DNA of 64,000 nt from positions 470,966-534,965 of the forward strand of contig CAVQFA010000003.1 of assembly GCA_963711735.1 (NCBI GenBank), written 5' to 3'. The position numbers and the translations under genes were made by a program. Shown piece by piece: positions 607 to 17,742 of the stretch. The notes beneath the pieces were generated by a model. It was not told where the DNA came from. It was given only the letters and a program-made list of their open reading frames with translations, and did no database searches. Position 1 is the stretch's first letter, and each line of letters opens with the position of its first letter. This stretch comes from Candidatus Gottesmanbacteria bacterium (GTDB taxonomy: Bacteria; Patescibacteriota; Microgenomatia; UBA10105; UBA927).

Positions 607-755
607 AACCCTTTTTTAAAAGGAGCGGAACCCTCCGGCGCGTATACGTGTTTGGATGATACACATATCACTATCTGTTGATAGTAGAGAATAGATGAGT
701 AAATATTTTCGTTTTACGAAGGAGGGTAACATTAGATTTATAGAAAGGAGCACAT

Positions 756-992: not shown

Positions 993-1009
993 AGTGTAAT
1001 TATTTCCAT

Positions 1010-2027: not shown

Positions 2028-2044
2028 TAGTAAAAATATTAGGA

Positions 2045-2551: not shown

Positions 2552-2782
2552 ACTGTTTCTTGTGAATACTCCACCAATATGATATCATACGAATATTCAT
2601 TTACAAGTTTAAAGCAATATATCTGCTTAAAATAATTGGTTCGTCCCGGTGGCGGGATATGAGGTTGCCTCTTTGTTCTATCCGATTTCCCCACACATAC
2701 GATACTTATGTTTTCCCTTTTTAGCAGTTTTATTCCTTTAACATGCAAAAATCTTATACGGAAAGGAGGGGAAATATAAATT

Positions 2783-3157: not shown

Positions 3158-3186
3158 ACACACACAACAATTTTCCAAAAAAAATT

Positions 3187-3220
3187 AAAACCCCGATGGC
3201 ATGTACGGGGTTTTATTTTT
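3187..3220. terminator. Rho-independent terminator hairpin (CCCCG...CGGGG) followed by a T-tract, between the convergent genes at 2783-3157(+) and 3249-4301(-)
   Basis: GC stem followed by TTTTATTTTT, with an A-tract on the other side, so it can act in both directions. Confidence 0.6.
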
Positions 3221-3248
3221 GGATAAGAAACGAGTTTCAATTTCCGAC

Positions 3249-4301: not shown

Positions 4302-4470
4302 ATAATTTATTTGAATAGTGGGTTTTATTTTTATTGGCAGGAAGATGAAAGGTTGTCTATACTGGTAAAGAAGAAATTGAACATGAATACATATGATTTA
4401 TGGATAATATAAAAACAATATTTCGGTTTGTCAATAAATGCAGGAGTGATTTGATTTTCAATAGTATAAT

Positions 4471-4806
4471 ATGATCTGTATGAATACGTCACCTGAAGCA
4501 GAAGAACAACACGAATCGCGTTATCTGGATTTTTTGAAAGACTGTCTTGACGGAAATCTGTGGGAGAATTTAACATTCGAACAATGGAATAGAATAAAGT
4601 ATAGAGAGTCATTGCTGTCTGAATACAACGATTATTGTCTGCAAAATTTAATAAATGCAAATGGGGATATTAAAGAGCTTCAGCTTCACGATGGAAATTT
4701 TTATGATTGGATGGCAGAAGTGAAAGGAATCGCACTAACATCAGATGAAGAAGAAATGAGAATTTACACATCGCAACCGGAACAAACGGAATCACCTATA
4801 GAATAG
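4471..4806 (+). CDS. hypothetical acidic protein
   Basis: 111-aa ORF preceded by a TATAAT-like box. Competes with an antisense ORF at 4331-4660. Confidence 0.3.
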   Translation: MICMNTSPEAEEQHESRYLDFLKDCLDGNLWENLTFEQWNRIKYRESLLSEYNDYCLQNLINANGDIKELQLHDGNFYDWMAEVKGIALTSDEEEMRIYTSQPEQTESPIE

Positions 4807-4866
4807 CGTACCGGAACGATAACAGAAACCAATAGAATCACTGCAATAAATGAAACAGGCCGGAAG

Positions 4867-5220
4867 TTAGAGAATTTCTTTAATGGCACTCGCGGGATAA
4901 CAGGATTCTCTTTTTCGCTGGATCTCGGTTTCCCAAAACAATTGTTCCTCAGGGGAAACATCGTCGATAGAAATCGCCTTCAGACCATATTGTTCAAACG
5001 CAGCATCATTAGGCATGCCGTACGGATATATATTCGCGATAATCATGGCCATATCTAAATGTTCTCTCACGCGGTTGGCATCGGATATTACGATAAGTTT
5101 TATTGGTTCGTCTTTCAGATCCGGGGGTGAAACCATTACGTTAACTACTAAACCCGGACGATAGTCAATTGGTTTAGCGTTACGGTCGGTGTAAAGAGCG
5201 AACGATGTATCTTTTAGCAT
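4867..5220 (-). CDS. hypothetical protein
   Basis: 117-aa ORF with no motif. Confidence 0.4.
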   Translation of the reverse strand: MLKDTSFALYTDRNAKPIDYRPGLVVNVMVSPPDLKDEPIKLIVISDANRVREHLDMAMIIANIYPYGMPNDAAFEQYGLKAISIDDVSPEEQLFWETEIQRKRESCYPASAIKEIL

Positions 5221-5373
5221 AATTTATCTCGTATTGTACTTTTATAATGATAAATGTCAATGTTTTGGGCGTTAAAACAACGGAATTACACATGTTGGGA
5301 AAATATTAAAACGTTTTTACTTCGATAGTAAACTGGTATAATTGGATTTATTCATTAAATTTATCTCAACAAT

Positions 5374-6027
5374 ATGATAAAACTAGCAATTATAGATTTC
5401 GATGACACATTGTGCATGACTGAGGAGGCGTGTTTTCATCTTGAAAATGATGCAGCTTCGAAATTAGGATTTCCACCGATGGGCAGGGATGTGCATAAAA
5501 AAAGTTGGGGTCAACCTGTAGAAATTGCCATTCTTGAGAGAATTCCCGGAATTGACCCGGAAAAATTCATGTCAAAACTAACGGCACTAATGCCCAAGTT
5601 AATTCAGGAAGGTAAATTGGATGTAATAACCTCACAAAATCTTTCAGCACTTGATGCTTTGAAAAAAAACGGAATGCACCTGGCACTATTAACGACTCGT
5701 ACTTTTAATGAAGTTAAACATTTAATAAACAGAAGCCATCCTTTATCAACCAGGATTGAAGCGTTCTATTATAAAGAAAATTCGGTGTTCAGGAAGCCGG
5801 ACCCGAGGGTGTTCACGGAGATTCTGGAAAAATTTAACATAAAACCCCGGGAGGCTGTATATGTCGGTGATAACGTCAGTGATGCGGAGTGCGCAAAGTC
5901 AGCCGGATTGTTTTTTATAGCTTCACTTGAAAGCGGACTGAAGACTAAAAAAGATTTTGGAAAAATAGATTACTTTATTGATAAGTTTTCAGATCTCCCA
6001 AAAGCCCTAGATTTTCTCAATAAGTAA
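5374..6027 (+). CDS. HAD-superfamily hydrolase
   Basis: N-terminal DxDxT motif (IIDFDDTL) and C-terminal VGDNVSDAECAKSAG motif IV. Confidence 0.75.
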   Translation: MIKLAIIDFDDTLCMTEEACFHLENDAASKLGFPPMGRDVHKKSWGQPVEIAILERIPGIDPEKFMSKLTALMPKLIQEGKLDVITSQNLSALDALKKNGMHLALLTTRTFNEVKHLINRSHPLSTRIEAFYYKENSVFRKPDPRVFTEILEKFNIKPREAVYVGDNVSDAECAKSAGLFFIASLESGLKTKKDFGKIDYFIDKFSDLPKALDFLNK

Positions 6028-6081
6028 GTATACTTGTTGGGATGGTATTGGAACTTTTTATAGCTTCGTCATGGAGCGAAA

Positions 6082-6546
6082 TTATTTAGCACTTTTTTGA
6101 TGCATAGCTTTATCTATTAATACAACTTGATTACTTCTCAGCAGTGGCATTTTGTCTTGTGAAAAAAAACCATATGCAGACACTTCCTGACTTGGAGTAA
6201 ATTCGCCACCGATAAATAAACCGGTATAACACATGTCCAGTCGGGAGCCGTTACGATCAGTGCGGGTTTTCAGTGGTGCGTCGACGCTTACGACAAGGCC
6301 CGATTCTTCCTTTATTTCCCTTTCAAGTGCTTCTGCGGGGTGCTCGCCGGATTTTAAATAACCGCCCGGCAGACTCCAGGCGTGTTGCCTATATGTATGA
6401 TTAAAAAGTAATACTTCGTTTTTTTCATTAAAAATAACTCCTGTAACTCCGACTAAAAATTGATTCTGAAAAAGGCGCATAAAAAACAACTGTACACCTT
6501 TTGGTAGGTTTAATATTTTCCATATCTTAGCGAGTAGTGATTTCAC
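6082..6546 (-). CDS. NUDIX hydrolase
   Basis: Nudix box GGYLKSGEHPAEALEREIKEESGL. Confidence 0.8.
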   Translation of the reverse strand: MKSLLAKIWKILNLPKGVQLFFMRLFQNQFLVGVTGVIFNEKNEVLLFNHTYRQHAWSLPGGYLKSGEHPAEALEREIKEESGLVVSVDAPLKTRTDRNGSRLDMCYTGLFIGGEFTPSQEVSAYGFFSQDKMPLLRSNQVVLIDKAMHQKSAK

Positions 6547-6890
6547 AATGCGTTTTTATCTTGAGGTTCATTAGACTTGGAGTCATTTTTGAGTCTCTCG
6601 TTTTCTAACTCCAGCTGGTGAATTCGTTTGGTCAAATCAACAATATCGCTTTTCCCGTGTTTGATCGCTGAATCCTTCCTGTGCATGGAAAAGGCGGTAA
6701 AAATTGAATTGATAAGATATATACAGTACGCTAATCCCAGTCCCGTTAAAAGAGAACCGATGATGACATAAAAGAGCGGAATACCGGAGAGTACGGATGT
6801 TCCAAGGCGTAAAGTTACCAACATCGAGTTATTTTGTGCCAGATACGCCATGATAGCGCCGATAATTAATAAGAAAATAAGTATAGGCAT
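6543..6890 (-). CDS. small membrane protein, LapA/DUF1049-like (two TM helices plus coiled coil)
   Basis: Two N-terminal hydrophobic helices, then a coiled-coil tail. 4-nt overlap with the NUDIX gene. The ATG at 6890 is the likely start. Confidence 0.5.
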   Translation of the reverse strand: MPILIFLLIIGAIMAYLAQNNSMLVTLRLGTSVLSGIPLFYVIIGSLLTGLGLAYCIYLINSIFTAFSMHRKDSAIKHGKSDIVDLTKRIHQLELENERLKNDSKSNEPQDKNAL

Positions 6891-6971
6891 TTCATATAGT
6901 ATACACACTTATCAAAATATTTTCTCATAAAGTATGTTCCAACATCGTCCCCTCTGGGAGCATATTTAATA

Positions 6972-7040
6972 AATTTCTCAGTACCCCAAATGATTTCTCG
7001 TTGGAACAAGCTTTTAGCCTCAATACGAGCGTGGAAAGGA
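6972..7040 (+). repeat. Short member (copy A) of a tRNA-Glu-3'-end-seeded repeat family: ...tctcaGTACCCCaaatgatttctcGTTGGAACaagcttttagcctcaatacgagcgtgg
   Basis: About 88% identical to 8829-8900. Shares the GTACCCC and GTTGGAAC...agcctcaata words with the long copies at 11.85, 13.2 and 14.27 kb. An inverted GTTCCAAC lies about 50 bp upstream. Confidence 0.6.
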
Positions 7041-7204
7041 ATTTTAGAACCTAATCTTCTCCCAGCCTTGAAGTATGTTTACAAACGAGTATTAGAATTT
7101 TGTATATATTCACGACATTTCATTTATTATTATACATTTATAGTTTGAACTATTTTTCTTCTTCTGATTTATATGCTAATATTAAACTAAATGAAACTAA
7201 AAAT

Positions 7205-8779
7205 ATGAATAGAAACAAGTACAATAAGGAGTCGTTTATATTTTTTTTAACCTTCATTGTAATTTCAGTCTCCCTGTTTGCCACATTTTCTATTGTCAGA
7301 CGTATTCAGATAGGAGAAAGTGTTCTTCCTCAAAAATCAAAAGCCGCATCTCAAACTACTGAACATTGGTTTCACCCAAATTACCATTATAAGTTCAATC
7401 ATGACTTAGCTTCATCTGCTTGGGGAAGTTATTTCACAAATACATCACAAACCGGAAATATTTTGAATAATATTAATGTATATGGACTGTTTGTAGAGCA
7501 AATAGAGAAAAATGAAGGAAATTTCTTACAGCAACTTATACCTCTTCTTAAAAGTAAAAATATAAAAATTTCTACGGAAGGTGGTCCTGCAAAATGTAAA
7601 GATAATAAGCTCATTGATGGAGCACAATGGGCAGATTATTTTCTGAATACTCTTTTAAAACCACTTTATGATGCAGGAGGGACTGTTGACTATTTTTCTT
7701 TTAGTGGATTTCCTGCACACACAATAAGCAGAACATCAACACCTATATGTACTACTAATATTAATGAATCTCTACCTGAACTTGTCAAGTTCATGAAAAG
7801 GTTTCATGAAGTCCATCCGGAAACAAAATTCGGTCTTATTATAAATTTTCCTAATTATGGTTATGGAAATAACATATCATACTGGTCAAATAATGAACCT
7901 TGGGGAGATTATAAAAGTCATTTAGAAAAGATATTGACTGCTGTAGATAATGCAGGAGAAAAACTCTATTACGTTCATATTGATAATCCATACGATTATG
8001 CCATAGGAGAACGCCCCCATACAATCCAAGGTATCGATTGGATGCAAAGAATAGTCGATATAGAAAAACAAACAAAAATGCATGGATTACGGTTTGGTCT
8101 TATTGTTAATTCTGAACGTGGAGGAATAGGCTATGACAAAAACAGCGGAAACGATAAACAATTCTATGATGACTCGATGGCATTTCTTAAAGAGTATTAT
8201 GAAAAAGGAGGAAGACTCGATAGTGTTATAGTAGAAAGTTGGTATAACCATCCATCTGCATTATTTCCTGATTATACCCCTTATACAATGACCTACAATG
8301 CTCTTAAGGCTTATCAGTTATACGATTCATTAACAAACGGCGTTAAAACGGTCAACCGATTAAAAAATGAGTCCGGAATTACGTTTATTGTCATGAGTGC
8401 TACAGAACAGAAAAGTGCAATCGAGAAGTACGGATATAAATCGCCAACGCCTCTTTTCCGGGCATGGGAATCAAAGAACGATGCAAATCTACACCCTGTC
8501 TATAGATTATTTAAAGCAAATGAAGGGTATTTATATACCAATGGGGAAAAGGAAAAAAATAACGCAATTAGTATCTACGGGTACTCGTTAAATGGCGTTG
8601 CGTTTTACGCATATTCCCGAAAAATAAACGATTCAGTACCCGTTTATCGCTTACAGTTAACCAATTCTGACGGTGGTTCGAGATTTTTATATACTTTATC
8701 AGAAACCGAAAAAAATACGTTAATAAACAACGGTAATTATAAATTGAACGGAATAGCATTTTACGCACTCCCTCCGTAA
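7205..8779 (+). CDS. secreted/membrane-anchored protein with C-terminal tandem DUF5648-like repeats (PVYRL...G.YLYT... x2); extremely AT-rich
   Basis: Long ORF running 7100-8779, with the likely start at Met 7205 (MNRNKYNK...) followed by a TM/signal segment. Two C-terminal repeats match the YRLYNP..GDHFYT...G pattern of DUF5648. GC is far below the neighbouring genes. Confidence 0.55.
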   Translation: MNRNKYNKESFIFFLTFIVISVSLFATFSIVRRIQIGESVLPQKSKAASQTTEHWFHPNYHYKFNHDLASSAWGSYFTNTSQTGNILNNINVYGLFVEQIEKNEGNFLQQLIPLLKSKNIKISTEGGPAKCKDNKLIDGAQWADYFLNTLLKPLYDAGGTVDYFSFSGFPAHTISRTSTPICTTNINESLPELVKFMKRFHEVHPETKFGLIINFPNYGYGNNISYWSNNEPWGDYKSHLEKILTAVDNAGEKLYYVHIDNPYDYAIGERPHTIQGIDWMQRIVDIEKQTKMHGLRFGLIVNSERGGIGYDKNSGNDKQFYDDSMAFLKEYYEKGGRLDSVIVESWYNHPSALFPDYTPYTMTYNALKAYQLYDSLTNGVKTVNRLKNESGITFIVMSATEQKSAIEKYGYKSPTPLFRAWESKNDANLHPVYRLFKANEGYLYTNGEKEKNNAISIYGYSLNGVAFYAYSRKINDSVPVYRLQLTNSDGGSRFLYTLSETEKNTLINNGNYKLNGIAFYALPP

Positions 8780-8828
8780 ATTTTAGTGAGGATCGAAGAT
8801 CGTCAATCCGTTATAGTAATTTTAGTAG

Positions 8829-8900
8829 AAATTTCTGTACCCCAAATGATTTCTCGTTGGAACCAGATTTTATCTTCAATACGAGCGTGGGAAGAATACC
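8829..8900 (+). repeat. Short member (copy B) of the same repeat family, a direct repeat of 6972-7040 flanking the 7205-8779 gene
   Basis: gaaatttctGTACCCCaaatgatttctcGTTGGAACcagattttatcttcaatacgagcgtggg, about 88% identical to copy A. Confidence 0.6.
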
Positions 8901-9099
8901 TGAATTCGGTTTCGTTGCAACTTTGCAATGTTACTACTAATTAGAATTAAATACATCCGTTGTGATGATTGAAAAAATTACTGGTATTAATCTGGGTCTA
9001 TGAGGTAAGGACTTAGTATAGTTGCTATTTTATTGTTTTTAGGTATATACTTTCACTCATTATAAAGTATCTGCCTGCTGCCTCATTTTCTATATCAAT

Positions 9100-10914
9100 A
9101 TGAATGCTAAAACTGAAGTTCCACTAAACACGCATCAGGCTCAATATGTTTCTGAACAATTAACGTCATTTCAACCTGAAAAAGCGAAAGGTACAAATAG
9201 TTTATTAGAATCTCTCTTCAGATCCATAAATACATTAGGAAATGAGTATGCGTTTCTGGCAGCTGCTCAGCTCAACGGTGACTCCGACTATCAAAACATG
9301 ATTGCAGAAAGGGTCATTGCCAAGGAATATCAGCATCTTCAAAAACCAAAGACTATGGACGCATACAATGAAGCGGTTCGGATCGGCAGAGAAACCGAAA
9401 CTGTAAAAAGGGTGTTATTTGCCCGAGTTCTACTGGAACATCCCGAGTCATTCTCTCCGGTCGAACATGAACTATTGGGCGGTGCAGTTATACTTTCCCA
9501 ATACGCGGACACTATATTTTTCGATGAATGGTTGCCAACTATACGTGATAGTGAGATAGGTAAAGCTCTGCATGCACTAGAAGAACAAGCAGCCGGCTCA
9601 TCATTGGGTGTACTACCCGGGACTCCCGATTCAATGCGTTGGTTTACTAGAAAACTCATTGATTCTGACAAACCCATTGAAAAAGATAATATTCAGCTGG
9701 TTCCATATAAAGATGCACTTCCCACTGTTAACAACATGATAGTTTCACTCAGGGAAATGGCTGACAATTTGGAACTGTTAAAACACGAAGGACAGGATGA
9801 TTTCGGGTATGTTGAATATTTCCGGGCATGGGCAGAGTGTCTGGCAGGAGTTGATCCTAATACTCAAAAAGAGAAAGAGGATAATATGTTTATCACCTGG
9901 AGAAGAGTCAATCCTCAAGCGCCTCTGTATTTCGTCGCAATGGCTGAAAATGAATATGAAGATCCAGCTGGAATAGCAATGGTTCCGTCAGTTCGAGCTG
10001 GGGTTTTGGATGAGTCCGATCAAGCACAAAGTCTCAAACTGCAGGAATCAGATTTGAAAAATGTGATCATACAATATACAACAGAACAAAATGTGTTCGG
10101 CGCGGAAAATCTTAAAAGGACAGATACTCACTACCGGATCTGGTCGCTGTTCGGCGGGTCAGATATGCTTTTTGGTATCTCCTCAGAATTTTTACCAAAT
10201 GATCCCGGTATACAAAGTAAAGAAGGAGCAGGGATATTCCCGGACCTTGCCCAGCAGGAAAAAGGGCATTATACACGAGATGTGTTTGCAGAAAAAGTGT
10301 ATCCCGAACCAATTCTCACAATTCTTAGAGATCTAAGATTTTCCTTGCAAGAAGGTTCAATTCATGAAATTCAATCACATGAACTCAATCATTTACCAGC
10401 GGTCACTCTGGAGGCAATTAACGCGATTGGGAAAACCAGAAATCTTCTGGAAGAAGCAAAGGCCACACTGGGAGGTTTAATCGCTCAAATACGAATTCGA
10501 CATAATCAGGATATAGAATTTCAAAAACGGGCAGCTGCAACACTACTTCATGCGGCACCTCGGTATATGGCAATTGACGGAAATCCGACATATCAGGGAT
10601 ATGTCAACGACACGAGGATAGTACTCATTGCAGCAGAAAAAGCAAACATACTAACGTTTAATGAGGCCAACGGATGGAGTCTGGATCTGGACAATACTGA
10701 CAAAATTGTATGGTTTTGGAACTTAATTGAAGAGTTTGTCGCATGGACGTATCACTTGTATGCTGATGTGACAGATGCACCAGTTGAGCAAAGGCCGGGA
10801 ATCGCCCAAAGAAATGCCGGGGAATTGGATACTTGGGTTGGTAAAAAACCTGAACCGGGTAATGATTTAGTAAATGATCGAACTATACGGGCTATAAAAT
10901 CTGCTCTTCAATAA
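9100..10914 (+). CDS. hypothetical cytoplasmic protein (604 aa), cargo gene
   Basis: Long uninterrupted ORF. No SD, no signal peptide and no recognisable domain. Contains a single HELNH (HExxH-like) string. Confidence 0.5.
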   Translation: MNAKTEVPLNTHQAQYVSEQLTSFQPEKAKGTNSLLESLFRSINTLGNEYAFLAAAQLNGDSDYQNMIAERVIAKEYQHLQKPKTMDAYNEAVRIGRETETVKRVLFARVLLEHPESFSPVEHELLGGAVILSQYADTIFFDEWLPTIRDSEIGKALHALEEQAAGSSLGVLPGTPDSMRWFTRKLIDSDKPIEKDNIQLVPYKDALPTVNNMIVSLREMADNLELLKHEGQDDFGYVEYFRAWAECLAGVDPNTQKEKEDNMFITWRRVNPQAPLYFVAMAENEYEDPAGIAMVPSVRAGVLDESDQAQSLKLQESDLKNVIIQYTTEQNVFGAENLKRTDTHYRIWSLFGGSDMLFGISSEFLPNDPGIQSKEGAGIFPDLAQQEKGHYTRDVFAEKVYPEPILTILRDLRFSLQEGSIHEIQSHELNHLPAVTLEAINAIGKTRNLLEEAKATLGGLIAQIRIRHNQDIEFQKRAAATLLHAAPRYMAIDGNPTYQGYVNDTRIVLIAAEKANILTFNEANGWSLDLDNTDKIVWFWNLIEEFVAWTYHLYADVTDAPVEQRPGIAQRNAGELDTWVGKKPEPGNDLVNDRTIRAIKSALQ

Positions 10915-11012
10915 GATAAATCCCTATATATACTCACCTGTGATATTCATCTACGTTGGATCAACGATATTTGATCTTGGAACACGGGTTGTTATAACAG
11001 GAAGAACTTTTA

Positions 11013-11072
11013 ATTTTGTACCCCGTAGCTTATCAAATTAGGACTTATTTTCAATCGATGATTTGATAATAA
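11013..11072 (+). repeat. Degenerate family member (copy C): ttttGTACCCCgtagc followed by a 9-bp-stem hairpin (ttatcaaat...atttgataa)
   Basis: Only the ttttgtacccc word and the upstream TTGGAACAC word are shared, so membership is weak. Confidence 0.25.
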
Positions 11073-11093
11073 TTATTTGGTATCTTCAGTTTG

Positions 11094-11639
11094 TTAATTC
11101 TGAATAGCTTGATCTGCTGGATACTTCCATTGATTTAAGTTTTTTTGAAATACTTGTCCAATATTATTGTGTAAACGAGCAACAACTGTTAGCAAATCTT
11201 CTGGCAAATCAAATGCTAAACCATTTTCAGTACCATAAAGAATTGACCCGTCTTGTGCTGTTACTACTCCGCAATCTAATCCAAAATCACGTTCATCGTT
11301 ACCGGGTATTCGATAAGTAAATTCTGTCTCAGTTGTGTGTGTATTAAAATTAAATAAACCATCAAATGATAATGTATCTGCATCTAAGATTTTTTGATCG
11401 TCTGGTGATAACATCTGTGCTGCCTCTTGAATAATTATTGGATTTAACCAGGCAGCATCAAGATGTGCTGTTAATTCCTTTATACCTTGCTTTCTTTCTG
11501 ATCCTATATCAGATAAATCTGCTTCTTCAAGTCGTGCTTGATCGAGCAATTCAATAGGCAATCCCAATTCTTCCATTCGTGCAATTACCAGGTTTGAGGC
11601 TAGCTCACGAATTTGTTGTGGTATTTCATGATCAGACAT
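11094..11639 (-). CDS. hypothetical acidic protein (181 aa), cargo gene on the opposite strand
   Basis: ORF with a good SD (AAGGAGGAA) immediately upstream on the minus strand (11641-11650). Confidence 0.5.
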   Translation of the reverse strand: MSDHEIPQQIRELASNLVIARMEELGLPIELLDQARLEEADLSDIGSERKQGIKELTAHLDAAWLNPIIIQEAAQMLSPDDQKILDADTLSFDGLFNFNTHTTETEFTYRIPGNDERDFGLDCGVVTAQDGSILYGTENGLAFDLPEDLLTVVARLHNNIGQVFQKNLNQWKYPADQAIQN

Positions 11640-11848
11640 ATTCCTCCTTAGTGAGCAGGAAGGTAATAATAATGATTTTCTTTGAAGAAATCAATGATTA
11701 TAAAAACTAAATCAAGTGCCTAGTTAATTAGACAGCCATCCTTTTCATTAGGGATGGGTTACCAACATAGGGCATAGATTAACTAGATATCTAAGGTTGT
11801 CCTTAAAATATAGAGGCTACTGTAAACGATTGTTGTATCACTTTTATT

Positions 11849-12050
11849 TGGTACCCCCTGCCGGATTGCCGCGATTACTCGACACTCGCCAGCACTAAAG
11901 CTCGTTGACTCGCTAAGTGCTGGTTGGCGAACCTCCGGTTCTCATCTAATGCAGAGTATTGCATAAAAAAATCGGGCGTAAAACCCGATATTTTTATGCA
12001 GTACACGTGTTGGAACCAAATTGGAACATATTTTAATCTCAACCACTTAG
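11849..12050 (+). repeat. Long divergent family member (R0): tRNA-3'-end-like GTACCCCCTGCCGGATT, imperfect hairpin module, palindromic terminator, tail GTACACGTGTTGGAAC...GGAACATATTTT
   Basis: About 75% identical to 13207-13420 over about 200 bp. Hairpin arms differ but keep their pairing (compensatory changes). The terminator is GCATAAAAAAATCGGGCGTAAAACCCGATATTTTTATGC. Confidence 0.6.
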
Positions 12051-12160
12051 ATTTCAATCCGCATTAATAAGAAATTGGTGAATTTGGTTCATAGTATTAA
12101 TTAGATAAATATCTTATAGTTGTTAATGAAAGTATTCATTGATATAATGCTCCAATTATT

Positions 12161-13198
12161 ATGTCGTATGTACCTGAAACTCTTGTATTAACACTTTCCC
12201 GGCAGTGTAATATTGAATGTAGTCACTGTATCGTCGAAGCAGAACCGAGAATATCAGAAGAACTTGATGTCAATATCATTAATTCTTCGCTTAGGCAAGC
12301 AAAGCAAATTGGCATACGAACTGTTTGCATCTATGGTGGAGAACCGTTTCTCCAGACCAGCGGACTTCTTCCTCACACCATACGCCAAACCTTTGCTGAG
12401 GGATTTCCTTTCGTTTCAATCGGAACAAATGGATTTTGGGGAAGAACAGAAGCACAGGCACAAAAAACACTATCCGAGTTGAAAAAGATAGTTAGCTCTT
12501 ATGACGGTATGATTGGTCTTGGCATGTCAGTAGACCGATTCCACCAACCGAGCGTACCACCACAATCAATTGCAAATATAATTTCAGTTCATAGACGTGG
12601 TAATTTCCCAAATATTCGATTAGGAATTCATACGTTCAAAGATCAACCATCATTTGATATTGTCGGACAGGTATATGATCGTGCGATGCGTAATGATTTG
12701 CATATGATCGAGAGTAATGACGCAGGATATATATATCCTGCGTTGAGAGAAGAGTTTATCGAGTTTTCCAGTGAGAACTTTCCCGTCATTAGACGTAATC
12801 TTGATTTACCTGAGGATGCAGATGAAAAGCATATCTTTGAATCACTTGTATTCAATCTTGATGTTTCACATGCAATGCGCGATGTGATGTTACCAAAAAT
12901 AATCGCACGTCAGATGGATATCGGTAACGGATTCGAAAATTACTTGATCTTTCCCAATCATACATATTTATTAGATTTTATTGTTGAGGAAAAAGTACTG
13001 AATGCCGGAAGGGCAAGGATTTCAGGTAATTTAGAAACTGCCCGCGATATGGACTCAGATACTGACTATTTGGTCATCGCTCCAAATGGTCAAGCATATG
13101 CCTATCCTGCTCATATTACCGCAGAATCAGGAATTATTATCGGAAATAAATCACTAAAACAGGTTGTAAGAGAAGTTGAAAACAAATGGTTCTATTAG
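12161..13198 (+). CDS. radical SAM domain protein (CX3CX2C motif C-N-I-E-C-S-H-C); cargo gene
   Basis: Canonical CxxxCxxC cluster at residues 16-23, followed by a glycine-rich SAM-binding segment (CIYGGEPF). No SPASM/twitch Cys cluster. Confidence 0.7.
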   Translation: MSYVPETLVLTLSRQCNIECSHCIVEAEPRISEELDVNIINSSLRQAKQIGIRTVCIYGGEPFLQTSGLLPHTIRQTFAEGFPFVSIGTNGFWGRTEAQAQKTLSELKKIVSSYDGMIGLGMSVDRFHQPSVPPQSIANIISVHRRGNFPNIRLGIHTFKDQPSFDIVGQVYDRAMRNDLHMIESNDAGYIYPALREEFIEFSSENFPVIRRNLDLPEDADEKHIFESLVFNLDVSHAMRDVMLPKIIARQMDIGNGFENYLIFPNHTYLLDFIVEEKVLNAGRARISGNLETARDMDSDTDYLVIAPNGQAYAYPAHITAESGIIIGNKSLKQVVREVENKWFY

Positions 13199-13206
13199 TT
13201 TAAAAA

Positions 13207-13368
13207 GTACCCCCAGTCGGATTCACTGCAAAGCTACGCTTTGAGTGCTCGCCAGCAGTATGACTCGTAAATATGAATTTACTCGTTAACTGCTGGTTAG
13301 CGAACCTTCGGTTCTCACCGACATGGGCATGAAAAAAGCACCCATTAGGGTGCTTTTTTCATGAGTAC
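13207..13368 (+). repeat. Repeat R1, a 162-bp unit 100% identical to 14266-14427. Its first 18 nt (GTACCCCCAGTCGGATTC) match the 3' end of the tRNA-Glu gene exactly
   Basis: Exact identity read from the sequence. Contains an imperfect hairpin (CGCCAGCAGT...ACTGCTGG) and a perfect 16-bp-stem hairpin CATGAAAAAAGCACCC-atta-GGGTGCTTTTTTCATG. A degenerate tail GTACACCTGTTGGGACGATGTTGGAACATATTT follows to about 13420. Confidence 0.9.
13328..13363. terminator. Perfect 16-bp-stem, 4-nt-loop hairpin with A-tract and T-tract arms (bidirectional intrinsic terminator) inside repeat R1
   Basis: CATGAAAAAAGCACCC ATTA GGGTGCTTTTTTCATG. Confidence 0.7.
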
Positions 13369-13471
13369 ACCTGTTGGGACGATGTTGGAACATATTTAGC
13401 CTCAAATATCTAAGTAATATATTTTTTTACGAGAGTATTATTCGGAAAATCAAATATGTTACACTGAATAT

Positions 13472-14260
13472 ATGAGTGAATCTGACATAAAAGTTAATAT
13501 TCAGCCGTCAGAAATTCAGCCTCAATCCGAACAGCCAAAGGAAGCCCGCGCACCAGTCCCCGGAATGAATAAAATAAAGTCATCTCATCTTCAGATAGCA
13601 TTGATGGCACTTCTTCTTATATCGATCACTACAGCAGGATATCTTGGTTATAAGTATTACGTATTCAATAATACATTAACTGTTACGCCGCCACAGCCTG
13701 AACAACCAGTTAAAACCATACCAACAATTACCCCTATTCTGACACCAGTATTTTCAATATCAGTAAATCCCGCTACAGGTCAGAATTTATATTCAAACAC
13801 AACATATGGGTTTAGTTTTGAATATCCTAAGGATTTTGTTATTGAAAATCAAAACCCCCCTAGTATTGGAGTAATGGGTAACAATATTGTCGGGCTCATC
13901 CGAAGATCTATGTACTTCCTGCCTAACTACCTACAAAATATAAGTAGGTATAATGAATATCGAAATCGGTTCACCAATATAAAAAAGCTAAATGTCGGAG
14001 AGTCGTACACATATGAACCAGTAGATACTTTTTTTGAGACGACAACCAGAATAGCTGATATGAAAATCGGAGGAATAACTTCTTATGTTTTTGATGTTCC
14101 TAAGGTTTGGGAAGGGGAAGGACCGTATAGAGAAATATATTTACCCAAAGGTGATGATTATATACAGATATTTTATACGAATTCTAACGATAAAGAAGAT
14201 CCGATTGATTACGTAAAAGGCTTTAACCAGATTCTATCCACTTTTAAATTTACTTATTGA
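13472..14260 (+). CDS. hypothetical membrane-anchored protein (262 aa), cargo gene flanked by the perfect repeats
   Basis: A hydrophobic helix at about residue 40 and a Pro-rich linker. No motif. Confidence 0.5.
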   Translation: MSESDIKVNIQPSEIQPQSEQPKEARAPVPGMNKIKSSHLQIALMALLLISITTAGYLGYKYYVFNNTLTVTPPQPEQPVKTIPTITPILTPVFSISVNPATGQNLYSNTTYGFSFEYPKDFVIENQNPPSIGVMGNNIVGLIRRSMYFLPNYLQNISRYNEYRNRFTNIKKLNVGESYTYEPVDTFFETTTRIADMKIGGITSYVFDVPKVWEGEGPYREIYLPKGDDYIQIFYTNSNDKEDPIDYVKGFNQILSTFKFTY

Positions 14261-14265
14261 TTTTT

Positions 14266-14427
14266 GTACCCCCAGTCGGATTCACTGCAAAGCTACGCTT
14301 TGAGTGCTCGCCAGCAGTATGACTCGTAAATATGAATTTACTCGTTAACTGCTGGTTAGCGAACCTTCGGTTCTCACCGACATGGGCATGAAAAAAGCAC
14401 CCATTAGGGTGCTTTTTTCATGAGTAC
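14266..14427 (+). repeat. Repeat R2, a 162-bp unit identical to R1 that abuts the tRNA-Glu gene and overlaps its 3' end by 4 nt; it includes the tRNA's terminator
   Basis: 100% identical to 13207-13368. Its terminal GTAC is the start of the genuine tRNA 3' segment. Confidence 0.9.
14388..14423. terminator. Perfect hairpin terminator immediately downstream of tRNA-Glu (minus strand), also able to act on plus-strand transcripts
   Basis: Same sequence as 13328-13363. Confidence 0.7.
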
Positions 14428-14498
14428 CCCCAGTCGGATTCGAACCGACGGTCTACACGTTGAGAACGTGTCGTCCTAGGCCGCTAGACGATGGGGGC
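14425..14498 (-). tRNA. tRNA-Glu, anticodon CUC
   Basis: Reverse complement GCCCCCAUCGUCUAGCGGCCUAGGACGACACGUUCUCAACGUGUAGACCGUCGGUUCGAAUCCGACUGGGGGUA folds as a cloverleaf (GUCU D-stem, ACACG/CGUGU anticodon stem, loop UUCUCAA, T-arm GUCGG-UUCGAAU-CCGAC). Close to E. coli tRNA-Glu. CCA is not encoded, and pair 1-72 is G.U. Confidence 0.85.
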
Positions 14499-14610
14499 GT
14501 TCCATACTAGTATACCTTATATTATATATGAGAAAAAGGGCTATAGCCGGCGGGTTTACCGGGGAAAAGATGAGTGGGTCATTAAATGTAATAATAATTG
14601 CAGGTTAGAC

Positions 14611-15426: not shown

Positions 15427-17742
15427 ATGTTCTGGGCAGACAGAATTGCAAAAGAAATCATTGGCAGCGGACTCTATCGTCCTTTTTGGGCGGATGATAT
15501 GTTCACCCCCTCAGGTTATGCACACATTGGTTCATTGCGTGGTCCCTTAGTCCATGACGTTATCTACCGTGCAATAACCGATGCAGGACAAAAAGCAGTG
15601 TCGACGTATGTTTTCAACGACTTTGATCCTGTGGACGGATTACCGTCTGAGCTTATGCATCTGTCCGATGAGCTTGGCAAACCGCTCCGCCTGGCGAAAT
15701 CTCCTGACGGCGGATACGCGAACTTCGCAGCGTACTTTGCACATGATTTTCAGACAGTGCTTCGGTCGCTCGGAGTCGGAGCGGAATTTCTCTCCAGCTG
15801 GGATATGTATCACGAAGGGAAATTTGACGGTGTTATCCGTACTGCCTTGGATCATGCACCCCTCATCCAGGACATCTATCAGCGTGTGAGCGGGAGCAAA
15901 AAACGCGAAAAAGGATGGCTTCCTCTTCAGGTTATCTGCGAGAAATGCGGGAAACTCGGAACAACGAGGGTGCATGATTGGGACGGGACGTTTGTTACAT
16001 ACACATGTGAAGAATCCATGGTTTCATGGGCAAAAGGATGTGGGTTTACCGGGAAAACCAGTCCGTTTACGGACCCGGATGATCCGAAACATCATCCCGG
16101 CAAGCTGCCGTGGAAAGTAGACTGGCCGGCACACTGGAGGGTCCTTGGCGTGACGATTGAAGGAGCAGGTAAAGACCATTCATCCGCGGGAGGTTCCCGG
16201 GATATCGCGAAGGTTCAGTGCAAAGAAGTCTTTGAAATACCGGAACCGTACAATCTGCCATACGAATTCTTTCTCATTGGAGGCAGGAAAATGTCCTCTT
16301 CTAAGGGGATCGGTCTCAAAGCTCGGGAGCTAACGGAAATCCTTCCGCCTCAATTAGGCAGATTTCTTTTCGTCCGCACGGATTACCACCAGGCAATAGA
16401 ATTTGATCCGGTCGGTACAACGGCAATTCCTGATTTGTTTGATGAGTACGACCGGTGTTTCACGGCATATGTAAACGGAGGCGATGAAAATCTGTCCCGT
16501 GCATTTGTATTATCACAAATCGGTAAAGTCCCGGAGAAATCTCCGGTTTTCATCCCGAGATTTCGCGACATTACCAATGTGCTTCAAACCCCTCACGCAG
16601 ATGCGGGTAAAATATTTACACAAAAAGCCGGACGGGTACTTACCGGACAGGAAGAAGAGATACTCAGGGAACGTATCTCATATGCACGTCTTTGGCTTTC
16701 TAAATTTGCACCTGAGGAAATGCTCACATCAATGACGAAAGAAATTCCCGATGATGTGAGAACTTTATCAGGGACACAGAGAGATTTTCTTACCCGTGTT
16801 GCCGATATGGTGAAGGATGCACAAAATCCTGAGAAACTACAGGAAGATTTATATGCACTCACGAAGGAAATGAAGATGAGCACAAAGGATGCTTTTTCTT
16901 CACTTTATATAGCGCTTATCGGGAGGAAGTACGGTCCCAAAGCAGCATGGTTTCTCCTCCAATATCCCAAAGATACCGTTGTGACACGCTTACGTGATGC
17001 AGCGAAACACCGGGAAGAAAAAGTTAAGCACGCTCCGGAGGATTTTGAAGTGATTGTTAAACCCGAATTTTTTACGATAGATCCTGCAGTGACGAAGTCG
17101 TACCCTACCGTTTCAATCGGAATTGCATTCATATCAAATGTCCACATAACTCTCAAAAATAATGAGCTGGAAAAGGAAAAAGCAAAAACTGTGGAACAAA
17201 TCCGCACCAATACTCTTGAAGAACTGGGAAGCTCTCCGGAGATAGTAAGCTACAGGAAGCTCTATAAACAAATGGGTATCGATTGGCATTCCCGGAGACC
17301 CTCTCCCGAGGCGCTTGTGCGGAGAATCATACAGGGCAAAGGACTCTATGAGGTAAACACGTGTGTGGATGCATATAATCTGTCAGTGGTGAAAAATCTG
17401 GTTTCCGTCGGTGCATTTGATGCGGACTCTATAAAGTTTCCGACCGTCTTGCGGTTTGCCAAAAGCGGTGATGAGATTCTTCTCCACGGCGACACCAAAC
17501 CGACAGCGTATACATCCGAAGAGCTGGCATACTATGATAAGTCCGGAGGATACAACATTGATTTTAACTACCGTGATGCCAAACGTACGCTCGTCACGGT
17601 TCATACGAAGAATATCTGGATAAACGTTGACGGTATATATGACATTTCAAAAGAGGCAGTATGGCATACGCTTCTCTCTGCTATAACGGGAATTATGAAA
17701 TACTGCGGCGGCACGCTTGAGTGGAAAGGGTTAGTGACATAA
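15427..17742 (+). CDS. lysK: class I lysyl-tRNA synthetase (archaeal-type LysRS) fused to a C-terminal B3/4 domain
   Basis: HIGH-type motif (YAHIGS) and KMSKS-type motif (KMSSSKG). The C-terminal roughly 210 aa (nt about 17100-17742) match the B3/4 domain (PSPEALVRRIIQG...VNTCVDAYNLSVV...GAFDADSI). Confidence 0.8.
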   Translation: MFWADRIAKEIIGSGLYRPFWADDMFTPSGYAHIGSLRGPLVHDVIYRAITDAGQKAVSTYVFNDFDPVDGLPSELMHLSDELGKPLRLAKSPDGGYANFAAYFAHDFQTVLRSLGVGAEFLSSWDMYHEGKFDGVIRTALDHAPLIQDIYQRVSGSKKREKGWLPLQVICEKCGKLGTTRVHDWDGTFVTYTCEESMVSWAKGCGFTGKTSPFTDPDDPKHHPGKLPWKVDWPAHWRVLGVTIEGAGKDHSSAGGSRDIAKVQCKEVFEIPEPYNLPYEFFLIGGRKMSSSKGIGLKARELTEILPPQLGRFLFVRTDYHQAIEFDPVGTTAIPDLFDEYDRCFTAYVNGGDENLSRAFVLSQIGKVPEKSPVFIPRFRDITNVLQTPHADAGKIFTQKAGRVLTGQEEEILRERISYARLWLSKFAPEEMLTSMTKEIPDDVRTLSGTQRDFLTRVADMVKDAQNPEKLQEDLYALTKEMKMSTKDAFSSLYIALIGRKYGPKAAWFLLQYPKDTVVTRLRDAAKHREEKVKHAPEDFEVIVKPEFFTIDPAVTKSYPTVSIGIAFISNVHITLKNNELEKEKAKTVEQIRTNTLEELGSSPEIVSYRKLYKQMGIDWHSRRPSPEALVRRIIQGKGLYEVNTCVDAYNLSVVKNLVSVGAFDADSIKFPTVLRFAKSGDEILLHGDTKPTAYTSEELAYYDKSGGYNIDFNYRDAKRTLVTVHTKNIWINVDGIYDISKEAVWHTLLSAITGIMKYCGGTLEWKGLVT

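What the first reader, a model, noticed from the sequence alone, without database searches (positions are those of the whole stretch)
6930..14500. Low-GC array of single-gene cassettes anchored at tRNA-Glu, each bounded by a repeat that starts with the tRNA 3' end
Between a LapA-like gene and tRNA-Glu(CUC) lie five cargo genes (7205-8779, 9100-10914, 11094-11639, 12161-13198, 13472-14260). Their function is unknown or accessory, and their GC is lower and more variable than the flanking housekeeping DNA. A member of one repeat family follows every cargo gene, at 6972, 8829, 11013, 11849, 13207 and 14266. Each copy begins with the 3' end of the tRNA (GTACCCCCAGTCGGATTC) in direct orientation. 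Fidelity to the tRNA decays with distance from it: 18/18 at 14266 and 13207, about 15/17 at 11849, and only GTACCCC at 11013, 8829 and 6972. That gradient is what sequential site-specific insertions into the tRNA 3' end would produce. Each new unit regenerates the tRNA end and pushes older att-like copies outward, where they decay. No integrase, transposase or other recombinase lies inside the array or elsewhere in the window. This could therefore be a trans-mobilised mini-cassette system, a decayed island, or a tRNA-derived boundary element. I cannot match it to a described system.
Basis: partly seen in the sequence, partly recalled or inferred. Interest (0 to 1): 0.85.

Follow-up and report, generated by a model that had tools for sequence, protein, structure and literature searches.

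The report
Gene cassettes stacked beside tRNA-Glu
At least six small, separately acquired gene cassettes have piled up next to a tRNA-Glu gene in a tiny-genome (Gottesmanbacteria-like) bacterium; their boundaries look like serine-integrase attachment sites, so this is a known kind of genomic island in miniature, plus a conserved hairpin element whose role is unknown.

Summary
The repeats are real, but they fall into two classes. (1) A 158-165-nt module occurs three times: 14266-14423, 13207-13364 (the 165-nt repeat that holds these two differs at one base) and 11851-12000 (diverged). Each holds a terminator, covariation-supported hairpins, and an 18-nt copy of the tRNA-Glu 3' end. (2) A 27-29-nt site, 'X' (GTTCNAA-N16-GTAC), lies at six gene boundaries between 6028 and 13393, always in the tRNA's orientation.

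X resembles the tRNA end (GTTCGAA-N11-GTAC) with 5 extra bases. That is the known spacing difference between attP and attB half-sites of large serine recombinases (LSRs).

In related genomes:
- the same module follows tRNA-Glu;
- sister strains carry different cassettes between the same two modules;
- a breakpoint maps at or within a few bases of GTAC;
- LSR genes run antisense into tRNA 3' ends, including tRNA-Glu.

The window holds no recombinase.

Verdict: a tRNA-anchored island built by serial site-specific insertion, now integrase-less. Close analogues are known: Dehalococcoides ssrA islands, SCCmec and tycheposons. The unexplained part is the conserved structured element inside a pseudo-T-loop, which matches no Rfam family.

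The parts
14424..14498 (-). tRNA-Glu(CUC), the anchor. Its 3' end (GTTCGAA-N11-GTAC) is read as the attB-type left half-site.
   Evidence: ARAGORN; Rfam tRNA at 60.8 bits; pattern search.
14266..14423 (-). Module M_A. It holds a bidirectional terminator (14387-14422), hairpin P1 (14361-14373), hairpin P2 (14311-14355), hairpin P3 (14283-14306), and an 18-nt copy of the tRNA 3' end (14266-14283).
   Evidence: structure and covariation.
13472..14260 (+). Cargo gene c5 (262 aa), with no confident Pfam family. It belongs to cassette E5, which spans 13365-14265 including X_B.
   Evidence: The gene sits alone on a 957-nt contig in an independent assembly.
13365..13393 (-). X_B, an attP-type half-site: ATGTTCCAACATCGTCCCAACAGGTGTAC.
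   Evidence: It is near-identical to the X that precedes a module in L083.
13207..13364 (-). Module M_B; the 165-nt repeat that holds it and M_A (13207-13371 vs 14266-14430) differs at one base, which lies beyond the module in the GTACNCC junction. The 18-mer is at 13207-13224, P3 at 13224-13247, P2 at 13252-13296, P1 at 13302-13314 and the terminator at 13328-13363.
12161..13198 (+). Cargo gene c4, a radical SAM protein of 345 aa (cassette E4).
12001..12029 (-). X_C, an attP-type half-site.
11851..12000 (-). Module M_C, a diverged copy. The 18-mer (CAATCCGGCAGGGGGTAC) is at 11851-11868, P3 at 11867-11884, P2 at 11889-11923, P1 at 11929-11941 and the terminator at 11961-11999. Its P2 stem carries a compensatory change relative to M_A and M_B.
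11094..11639 (-). Cargo gene c3 (181 aa, no Pfam family). It lies on the opposite strand to the other cargo genes (cassette E3).
11018..11046 (-). X_D, an attP-type half-site with one mismatch to the pattern.
9100..10914 (+). Cargo gene c2, DUF7897, 604 aa (cassette E2).
8837..8865 (-). X_E, an attP-type half-site. It lies inside the 74-nt repeat at 8821-8894.
7205..8779 (+). Cargo gene c1, DUF5648, 524 aa (cassette E1).
6981..7009 (-). X_F, an attP-type half-site. It lies inside the 74-nt repeat at 6965-7038.
6934..6962 (+). An X-like sequence in inverted orientation (ATGTTCCAACATCGTCCCCTCTGGGAGCA). Its status is unexplained.
   Evidence: inverted repeat I3; PWM score 20.8 against a shuffle maximum of 19.9.
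6082..6908 (-). NUDIX gene (6082-6546) and LapA-like gene (6543-6908). They probably form a further two-gene cassette, E0.
   Evidence: Pfam; bounded by X_F and X_G; no synteny with relatives.
6028..6056 (-). X_G, an attP-type half-site (AAGTTCCAATACCATCCCAACAAGTATAC). It is the outermost confident boundary.
5286..5314 (-). A weak candidate X site upstream of the HAD hydrolase gene (5374-6027). Its score is within the noise.

Best explanation
The region from about 6028 to 14423 is an islet anchored on tRNA-Glu(CUC). It was built by repeated site-specific integration of very small elements of one or two genes at the extreme 3' end of the tRNA. The crossover falls at or next to the GTAC formed by G71, U72, the discriminator A and the following C.

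Each integration leaves two junctions:
- On the tRNA side, the tRNA end (attB-type left half-site) is joined to the cassette.
- On the far side, the element's own attP-type left half-site (X) is joined to whatever followed the tRNA before.
Older cassettes are therefore pushed outward, each keeping its X.

The native trailer of this tRNA is a 158-nt module: terminator, structured body, then a pseudo tRNA 3' end. Direct repeats of the tRNA end flank the module, so it can duplicate in tandem. A module-module junction recreates a site that looks like 'tRNA end | terminator'. This would explain why the three youngest junctions each carry a module.

The most likely enzyme is a large serine recombinase (LSR) of the CPR clade whose gene ends antisense inside tRNA 3' ends. 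It is absent here, so the cassettes are either fixed relics or movable only in trans.

Shown: the sites, their geometry and orientation, the structure of the module, cassette exchange in relatives, and the LSR-tRNA overlap in relatives.
Inferred: that an LSR made this particular array, the exact crossover position, and how the module duplicated.
For: 1. SITE DISTRIBUTION. Six X sites lie on the tRNA's strand and at gene boundaries. This holds whichever way the cargo gene points: c3 and the NUDIX/LapA pair are reversed. The exact pattern GTTCNAA-N16-GTAC has 4 perfect matches, all inside the array, and the two single-mismatch matches inside the array (11018, 6028) also sit at gene boundaries; the only other single-mismatch match (37518) is outside it and in line with the ~3.8 matches expected by chance.
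2. SPACING. The tRNA has GTTCGAA-N11-GTAC and X has N16. The same +5 or +6 holds for X sites before modules in L081, L083, L088 and L095; in L084 the offset is +4. In LSR att sites the zinc-ribbon-domain motif sits 5 bp further from the crossover in attP than in attB (PMC3783163).
3. BREAKPOINTS AT GTAC. L085 has tRNA...GGTAC|AAATTAAACTGG. L084 and L094 have X...TGTAC|AAATTAAACTGG. The BLAST block between them (98% over 153 nt) covers the trailer side and ends within about 3 nt of GTAC; nothing was found beyond it. The 165-nt repeat in the window is bounded by GTAC at both ends.
4. CASSETTE EXCHANGE. At one tRNA-Glu(UUC) locus with 99% identical flanks, all four combinations of two module variants and two cassettes occur: L093, L097, L081 and L086.
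5. ENZYME FAMILY. The 4.4-kb cassette holds an LSR C-terminal relic whose ORF runs antisense into the 18-mer. All seven homologues with downstream sequence overlap a convergent tRNA 3' end: Asn in L098 and L107, Lys in L103, Gln in L104, L105 and L108, and Glu in L109. P0002 ends ...LYPVPDSNRR, the antisense translation of tRNA-Glu.
6. NOT A DISPERSED REPEAT. All window copies are at this locus. In a 288-kb metagenome contig both pattern hits abut tRNAs.
7. CONSERVED MODULE. The module follows tRNA-Glu in L001, L004, L010, L087, L090 and others.
Against: - No recombinase of any kind was found in the window (tblastn; Pfam). The rest of the genome could not be searched.
- The cassette-side (P') sequences next to the window's junctions are merely AT-rich. 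They lack the GGACTYT...GAG motif that marks the LSR-encoded P' half-site in relatives. No symmetric right half-site could be recognised.
- No X-type site could be found at the far end of the intact LSR elements in L098 or L105.
- The 18-mers inside modules lack the GGTTC part of the putative zinc-ribbon motif, so their competence as attB sites is uncertain.
- If the crossover were the TA of GTAC it would be palindromic, which LSRs avoid. A GT crossover is inferred only from the spacing.
- No same-species genome was available to show these particular cassettes present or absent.
- The model does not explain why the P2-P3 body is so conserved.
Confidence: 0.6

Rival explanations
1. The architecture is the same (serial integration at the tRNA end), but the enzyme is different. 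It could be a tyrosine integrase of the kind that usually targets the T-loop-to-3'-end segment of tRNA genes, or an unknown enzyme.
For: The 18-nt identity block starts in the T-loop, which is the classic tyrosine-integrase sublocation (my own knowledge of Williams 2002). Phage_integrase genes lie beside the LSR genes in L102 and L103. The window's cassette ends lack the LSR-type P' motif.
Against: X is not an identity block with the tRNA. It is a similar motif displaced by 5 bp, which is an LSR signature and is not expected for tyrosine integrases. Breakpoints map at the very end of the tRNA (GTAC), not in the T-loop. The recombinase relic found inside an exchanged cassette is an LSR. No tyrosine integrase is present in the window.
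Confidence: 0.15
2. The repeats are ordinary intergenic elements: a terminator or insulator module and a promoter-associated motif. They spread by duplication. The variable gene content reflects homologous recombination between repeats, not site-specific integration.
For: The module contains a strong bidirectional terminator. Four of the six X sites lie 80-235 nt upstream of plus-strand genes. Modules that are 85-100% identical could support homologous exchange, which alone could explain the L081/L097 swap. Tandem modules in L001 and L087 look like unequal crossing-over.
Against: X_D and X_G lie downstream of genes, and every X keeps the tRNA's orientation whichever way the genes point. The repeats are absent from the other 55 kb of the window. 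This reading leaves the +5-bp relation to the tRNA end, the breakpoint mapped to within a few bases of GTAC and the LSR overlap with the same site unexplained.
Confidence: 0.12
3. The primary feature is the structured P2-P3 element. It would be a small mobile insertion or intron-like RNA that targets GTTCG in tRNA T-loops and D-arms. The array would then be a by-product of its spread into displaced tRNA fragments.
For: The 75-90-nt element sits between GGTTCG and AATCC of pseudo-T-arms of Glu-type and Cys-type sequences. In L085 a near-identical copy sits after GTTCG in the D-arm of a tRNA-Glu 5' fragment. L092 has a matching pseudo 3' half with an uninterrupted T-loop. Covariation is strong: 16 of 21 pairs are compensatory, the score is 0.471 against 0.156 for shuffles, and 0 of 500 shuffles reach it. 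The tRNA-sense strand is favoured. No Rfam family matches.
Against: It does not account for the X sites, for the cassettes that lack modules (E0-E3), or for the LSR evidence. No transposase or splicing enzyme is linked to it. It has never been seen in an intact tRNA. The boundaries show no target duplication and no recognisable IS200/IS605-type guide/cleavage-site relation (my own inspection).
Confidence: 0.1
4. The duplicated 165-nt unit is an assembly artefact.
For: Two copies of the 165-nt repeat that differ at a single base (99%) flank a 0.9-kb segment. A short-read assembly breaks at exactly these points.
Against: A diverged third copy and six X sites cannot be artefacts. Homologous modules and arrays occur in many independent assemblies. 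Breaks at repeats are what real repeats produce.
Confidence: 0.03

Closest known systems
Dehalococcoides ssrA-specific genomic islands (ssrA-GIs; McMurdie et al. 2011, PMC3146451)
   Same: Both are tandem islands downstream of a single-copy RNA gene, each bounded by a ~20-bp direct repeat of that gene's 3' end. In both, the integrase is a ~540-aa serine recombinase encoded next to attL on the reverse strand. Some tandem units lack the integration module and are interpreted as cis-mobilizable elements.
   Different: The target here is a tRNA, not tmRNA. [quoted passage not shown] No integration module is present at all. Most boundaries are attP-type X sites, not target repeats. An extra structured 158-nt module is interleaved.
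SCCmec / SCC composite islands at rlmH (orfX) in Staphylococcus (own knowledge; discussed in PMC3146451)
   Same: Both involve large-serine-recombinase (Ccr) integration at the 3' end of a conserved gene. Both show direct repeats containing the integration-site sequence, tandem accumulation, and ccr-less pseudo-SCC elements that can be moved in trans.
   Different: The target here is a tRNA and not a protein-coding gene. The host phylum and the scale differ. The LSR clade here has its own C-terminus encoded across the att site.
Tycheposons and tRNA-anchored islands of Prochlorococcus (Hackl et al., 10.1101/2020.12.28.424599)
   Same: Elements integrate at specific tRNA genes. Newly arriving elements push older ones further into the island. 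Partial tRNAs and fragmented integrases are scattered through the islands. A minority of the elements use large serine recombinases.
   Different: Tycheposons carry integrase plus replication modules and several kb of cargo. Here there is no integrase or replication gene, the cassettes hold one or two genes, and the boundary-site anatomy differs.
ICE/CIME accretion in streptococci (reviewed in PMC5704250; own knowledge of Pavlovic et al. 2004)
   Same: Both have att-flanked elements without recombination genes, stacked in tandem at a tRNA 3' end. Such elements are potentially mobilised by a related element's integrase.
   Different: Those systems use tyrosine integrases and true identity-block repeats, and they involve conjugation. 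None of this is shown here.
Integron gene-cassette arrays
   Same: Both have the granularity of one gene per cassette, with a structured recombination-associated element at cassette boundaries.
   Different: Here there is no intI, attI or attC (no RYYYAAC/GTTRRRY cores). The cassettes have their own upstream regions and mixed orientations. The array is anchored on a tRNA.

Membership tests
Tandem islands made by serine-recombinase integration at a conserved RNA gene (ssrA-GI / SCC type) | The array abuts the 3' end of a single conserved target gene. | tested here: met
   The tRNA-Glu(CUC) 3' end at 14424 adjoins module M_A directly. Synteny with relatives holds only on the 5' side of the tRNA.
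Tandem islands made by serine-recombinase integration at a conserved RNA gene (ssrA-GI / SCC type) | Each unit is bounded by a direct repeat of the target's 3' end. | tested here: inconclusive
   Three junctions carry the 18-mer (18/18, 18/18 and 15/18). Six junctions carry X, which resembles the tRNA end but is not a copy of it.
Tandem islands made by serine-recombinase integration at a conserved RNA gene (ssrA-GI / SCC type) | A large serine recombinase gene lies next to the target-proximal junction of at least some units. | tested here: not met
   There is none in the window. The feature is met in related loci L081, L086 and L109.
Tandem islands made by serine-recombinase integration at a conserved RNA gene (ssrA-GI / SCC type) | Units are present or absent, or exchanged, between close strains while the anchor is conserved. 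| tested here: inconclusive
   Shown for a different Gottesmanbacteria population: L081, L086, L093 and L097 have 99% identical flanks. No same-species comparison exists for the window. The exact-protein look-ups returned contigs of one sequencing run only (ERR12037368); a second, 0.2-1 Mb carrier, probably the source contig, was indicated but not returned.
Tandem islands made by serine-recombinase integration at a conserved RNA gene (ssrA-GI / SCC type) | Excision to a circular intermediate, with regeneration of the empty site. | not testable with these tools
   This needs read-level data or PCR.
Large serine recombinase att sites | The attP half-site carries the distal (zinc-ribbon-domain) motif 5 bp further from the crossover than the attB half-site does. 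| tested here: met
   The tRNA has GTTCGAA-N11-GTAC. X has GTTCNAA-N16-GTAC at six window sites (one of them, X_D, with one mismatch) and in L081 and L083; L095 keeps the spacing with a variant motif, L084 is one base shorter and L088 about one base longer. The rule comes from PMC3783163.
Large serine recombinase att sites | Two inverted half-sites flank a non-palindromic central dinucleotide. | tested here: inconclusive
   Right half-sites are not recognisably symmetric, either in the window or in L081 (inspection). The crossover position is inferred only from the spacing.
Integron | An intI integrase, attI, and attC sites with R''/R' core sequences. | tested here: not met
   No tyrosine recombinase is present. 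The boundary elements lack the RYYYAAC/GTTRRRY cores.
Dispersed intergenic repeats (REP/MITE-like) | Copies are scattered through the genome without a fixed neighbour. | tested here: not met
   All copies in the 64-kb window are at the tRNA-Glu locus. Eleven of the 17 metagenome loci hold a tRNA within about 300 nt of a module (under 150 nt in ten). No tRNA was found in the other six, which are contigs of 1.6-3.6 kb. The whole genome was not available.
Any Rfam RNA family | A covariance-model match to the module. | tested here: not met
   Only the tRNA passes the gathering threshold. With permissive E-values, only terminator-driven chance matches appear.

The most novel reading that the evidence does not exclude
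The 158-nt module may be more than a scar. It could be a new functional, structured nucleic-acid element specific to Microgenomates-group CPR bacteria.

Two readings remain open:
(a) It is a portable 'landing pad'. It supplies a terminator for the tRNA and regenerates an attB-like site after each capture. That would turn a tRNA gene into an integron-like platform that accumulates cassettes without a resident integrase.
(b) It is a miniature mobile or intron-like RNA that inserts after GTTCG in T-loops and D-arms. It would be linked to the nested tRNA-within-tRNA genes seen in relatives.
Probability: 0.25. Interest if true: 0.8.

Novelty: new variant of a known kind. Interest (0 to 1): 0.6.

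Why it matters
CPR/Patescibacteria have very small genomes and few recognised mobile elements, so how they gain and lose accessory genes is poorly understood. This locus and its relatives show a concrete route. tRNA-Glu, and in relatives other tRNAs, act as docking sites. Cassettes of one or two genes are stacked and swapped there, probably by a clade of large serine recombinases whose own C-terminus is encoded across the attachment site.

The attB/attP geometry can be read directly from the sequence, and it gives testable substrates for these integrases. That may also interest genome engineers, because the sites are short and the targets are tRNAs.

The conserved, covariation-supported hairpin element inside a pseudo-T-loop has no described family and deserves experimental attention.

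Tried and rejected
- GENOME-WIDE COPY NUMBER. The exact module pattern gave 0 hits in GTDB representative genomes, so the source genome is not there and copy number could not be measured.
- VIRAL CONTIGS. 0 hits for the module pattern.
- RFAM. Nothing at gathering thresholds or at permissive thresholds except the tRNA and terminator-driven noise.
- STRAIN VARIANTS OF THIS SPECIES. Exact-protein look-ups for GreA, c4 and c5 returned only contigs from one run, without DNA.
- SHARED CARGO. tblastn of the window's left-flank and cargo proteins against the loci fetched up to that point (106) found no shared genes.
- HAMMERHEAD OR OTHER SELF-CLEAVING RIBOZYME. Considered because of the CTGGTGAG and GATGAG motifs. 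Rejected because the core nucleotides do not fit and Rfam finds nothing.
- SMALL ORF STARTING AT ATGAGAACC. Rejected because the P1 length varies by 4 nt, which shifts the frame, and the changes are compensatory in stems.
- GROUP I INTRON. A published Patescibacteria tRNA-intron study was read (PMC13011429). Rejected because the element is only 75-90 nt and sits in pseudo-tRNA fragments.
- GUIDE-RNA READING (scaffold plus 18-nt guide, TnpB/IscB-like). Not supported: no such gene turned up in the window ORFs scanned or in the gene tables seen for related loci (it was not searched for specifically), and the 18-mer is explained by the att logic.
- IS200/IS605-type PATE. No guide/cleavage-site relation could be recognised.
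- X AS A PROMOTER. Rejected because two of the six X sites lie downstream of genes and all keep the tRNA's orientation. The promoter scan found no more sites than in shuffled sequence.
- X-TYPE SITE AT THE FAR END OF INTACT LSR ELEMENTS (L098, L105). Not found.

Full report
WHAT IS THERE

The window comes from a Candidatus Gottesmanbacteria-like CPR bacterium. Its class-I LysRS-B3_4 fusion is at best 64% identical to those of Gottesmanbacteria MAGs. A single tRNA, tRNA-Glu(CUC), lies at 14424-14498 on the minus strand. To its right, GreA, LysRS, a Ham1-family protein and SerRS are syntenic with relatives. Nothing to its left (1-14400) has a counterpart within 10 kb in any of 80 related loci.
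- c1, DUF5648;
- c2, DUF7897;
- c3, no Pfam family;
- c4, radical SAM;
- c5, no Pfam family.

TWO CLASSES OF BOUNDARY ELEMENT, NOT ONE

Class 1 is a module of about 158 nt. Read in the tRNA's sense it contains, in order:
- a perfect bidirectional terminator;
- hairpin P1;
- a long hairpin P2 with a conserved internal loop;
- hairpin P3;
- GAATCCGACTGGGGGTAC, the last 18 nt of the tRNA.

The module occurs at 14266-14423, directly after the tRNA. It recurs at 13207-13364, within a 165-nt repeat that is 99% identical and includes the GTACNCC just beyond the terminator. A diverged copy lies at 11851-12000. The diverged copy keeps P2 through a compensatory change: CCAGCAG/CTGCTGG becomes CCAGCAC/GTGCTGG.

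Class 2 is a 27-29-nt site that I call X, with the form GTTCNAA-N16-GTAC. It occurs on the minus strand at 13365, 12001, 11018, 8837, 6981 and 6028. In copies B and C, X sits exactly where the tRNA sits in copy A.

A weak candidate at 5286 would also include the HAD hydrolase gene. All X sites keep the tRNA's orientation whichever way the cargo genes point, and two of them lie downstream of genes. This argues against a promoter role.

GC is only modestly lower inside the array: 0.375 against 0.42 in the flanks. A short-read assembly of run ERR12037368 gives the same gene order and breaks at the 165-nt repeats.

THE SITE GEOMETRY POINTS TO A LARGE SERINE RECOMBINASE

The tRNA end reads GTTCGAA-N11-GTAC and X reads GTTCNAA-N16-GTAC. 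The same motif is therefore displaced outward by 5 bp. X sites that precede modules in other genomes show about the same offset: +5 in L081, L083 and L095, +4 in L084 and about +6 in L088. The X in L083 is almost identical to X_B.

For LSRs the zinc-ribbon-domain motif occupies positions 16-24 of attP half-sites and 11-19 of attB half-sites, which is a 5-bp shift (Rutherford et al. 2013, PMC3783163). If the crossover is placed at the GT of GTAC, the GTTCNAAT motif falls at exactly these positions in both kinds of site. This step is inference. The right-hand half-sites are not recognisably symmetric.

COMPARATIVE EVIDENCE FOR INTEGRATION AND EXCHANGE

- Breakpoint. L085 has tRNA-Glu...GGTAC|AAATTAAACTGG. 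L084 and L094 have X...TGTAC|AAATTAAACTGG. The BLAST block between them (98% over 153 nt) covers the trailer side and ends within about 3 nt of GTAC; nothing was found beyond it.
- Exchange. At a tRNA-Glu(UUC) locus of another Gottesmanbacteria population, the flanks are 99.3-99.9% identical. The segment between the first and second module is either a 1.08-kb cassette with one SnoaL gene (L093, L097) or a 4.4-kb element (L081, L086). Two variants of the first module combine with either cassette. The exchange point therefore lies at the 18-mer/GTAC.
- Recombinase relic. The 4.4-kb element ends with the C-terminal half of an LSR (Zn_ribbon_recom domain). Its ORF reads antisense into the module's 18-mer (...YAQSPSLYPVPDCR*). 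At its far end it has an X site fused to a terminator plus module.

THE RECOMBINASE FAMILY

Homologues of that relic are common in CPR genomes (247 hits). All seven homologues for which downstream DNA was available run 30-40 nt into the 3' end of a convergent tRNA:

| Locus | tRNA |
|---|---|
| L098 | Asn |
| L107 | Asn |
| L103 | Lys |
| L104 | Gln |
| L105 | Gln |
| L108 | Gln |
| L109 | Glu |

. Many C-termini in the hit list end in ...SP.LL..DSN.., the antisense translation of a T-arm.

L109 is homologous to the L081 locus (75% nucleotide identity), but there the LSR abuts the real tRNA-Glu with no module in between. Integration can therefore occur at the tRNA itself. The module either was inserted later or offers a second site.

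The window has no LSR, no tyrosine integrase and no other recombinase. The cassette ends next to its junctions also lack the GGACTYT...GAG motif of the LSR-encoded half-site. The enzyme assignment for this particular array is therefore inferred, not shown.

THE MODULE ITSELF

The module follows tRNA-Glu(CUC) or tRNA-Glu(UUC) in many Gottesmanbacteria-like contigs. It follows tRNA-Cys once and tRNA-Arg once.

Its conserved core (P2, YGAG, P3; 75-90 nt) lies between GGTTCG and AATCC of a pseudo-T-arm. Each unit therefore looks like a tRNA 3' fragment interrupted in its T-loop.

On 20 distinct copies:
- 92% of cells pair;
- 16 of 21 pairs show compensatory changes;
- the covariation score is 0.471, against 0.156 in shuffles (0 of 500 shuffles reach it) and at most 0.14 in slid controls.

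G-U pairs outnumber A-C mismatches 9 to 3, and the tRNA-sense strand folds better in most copies. No Rfam family matches.

Because the module is flanked by direct repeats of the tRNA end, unequal exchange can duplicate it in tandem, as seen in L001 and L087. A module-module junction would then mimic 'tRNA end | terminator'. This would explain the alternation of module and cassette at the three youngest junctions of the window. It is a hypothesis. Why the hairpins are conserved remains unknown.

COMPARISON WITH KNOWN SYSTEMS

The overall logic is established: a conserved RNA gene as target, serial insertion that pushes older units outward, and boundary repeats derived from the target's 3' end. 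Some units also lack an integrase. Known examples are:
- Dehalococcoides ssrA genomic islands, which use a CcrB-like serine recombinase (PMC3146451);
- SCCmec composite islands;
- Prochlorococcus tycheposon islands (10.1101/2020.12.28.424599);
- ICE/CIME accretion.

This locus differs in scale (0.9-2 kb, one or two genes per unit) and in host (a CPR bacterium). It also differs in keeping attP-type half-sites at most boundaries and in the interleaved structured module. It is not an integron: there is no IntI or attC, and gene orientations are mixed.

VERDICT

The system is a new, miniature variant of a known kind of tRNA-anchored accretion island, here without its recombinase. One component, the module's structured core, is unexplained and possibly new.

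Noticed in passing
L085:2270-2800 (-), L096:120-440 (+), L082:6740-7050 (+), L092:270-520 (+): These loci hold nested tRNA genes. An 'outer' tRNA (Glu or Cys) is split inside its anticodon, at position 34/35 or 35/36. The interrupting segment is a spacer, a complete tRNA of the same isoacceptor, and a second spacer. The two spacers base-pair; in L082 they form a perfect 14-bp helix. In L085 and L082 the outer halves still form nearly every tRNA stem (one mismatch in the L082 anticodon stem). This could be a tRNA-carrying mini-insertion or an unusual intervening sequence.
   Followed up: partly
L085:2552-2718 (-): The same P2-P3 element that interrupts pseudo-T-loops also sits in the D-arm of a tRNA-Glu 5' fragment: GCCCCGTTCG | element | CTAGCGG. 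This suggests an element that inserts after GTTCG without duplicating its target.
   Followed up: partly
L018:6885-7013 (-), L075:8999-9158 (-), L067:7751-7827 (+): Daviesbacteria-like and other Microgenomates loci also have a copy of their own tRNA-Glu 3' end 60-145 nt downstream of the tRNA. In L018 and L075 the copy again forms a pseudo-T-arm interrupted after GGTTCA, but by different hairpins. The architecture is conserved while the sequence is not.
   Followed up: partly
L098:9524-9563, L103:6870-6909, L104:6858-6888, L105:3152-3182, L108:7329-7389, L109:1434-1473: The last 10-20 codons of these serine recombinase genes are encoded antisense to a tRNA 3' end. The C-terminus of the protein would therefore differ between the integrated and the excised state. 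Many database homologues are ~300-aa N-terminally truncated or frameshifted ORFs.
   Followed up: partly
L005:3650-3920 (-): There is a tandem partial duplicate of tRNA-Glu(CUC) that begins in the D-arm (GTTCGT^CTAGTGG). It is followed by a run of N, which marks a scaffold gap.
   Followed up: no
window 13207-14430: The c5 cassette is flanked by two copies of the 165-nt repeat that differ at a single base, and it assembles alone as a 957-nt contig in a short-read assembly. The same graph would result from a mixed population with an excised or tandem c5 unit. Read-level data are needed to decide.
   Followed up: partly
window 6934-6962 (+): An X-like sequence lies in inverted orientation 19 nt from X_F, matching X_B at 18 of its first 18 bases. 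It may be a remnant of an oppositely oriented event or part of a composite site.
   Followed up: partly
window 1-5200: The left flank is also accessory-looking and non-syntenic: DUF2207 C-terminal domain, a matrixin-like peptidase, an RRM RNA-binding protein, an AAT/peptidase-C45-like protein, and several ORFs with no family. The variable region next to this tRNA may therefore be larger than the part bounded by recognisable sites.
   Followed up: partly
window 15427-17742 (+): A class-I lysyl-tRNA synthetase is fused to a C-terminal B3_4 domain (771 aa). About half of the related loci match only the first ~525 residues, so the fusion is lineage-specific.
   Followed up: no
L109:3691-3730: A module fragment lies 2.2 kb on the 5' side of tRNA-Glu(UUC), beyond a DUF433/DUF5615 toxin-antitoxin pair. 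It probably marks the outer part of a neighbouring array.
   Followed up: no
window 11851-11868: Over its last 17 nt, the 18-mer of the diverged module differs by one base from the tRNA-Glu ends of relatives (L087/L090 type or L001 type). It differs by two bases from the window's own tRNA. This hints that the module was acquired from another lineage or predates a change in the tRNA T-stem.
   Followed up: no
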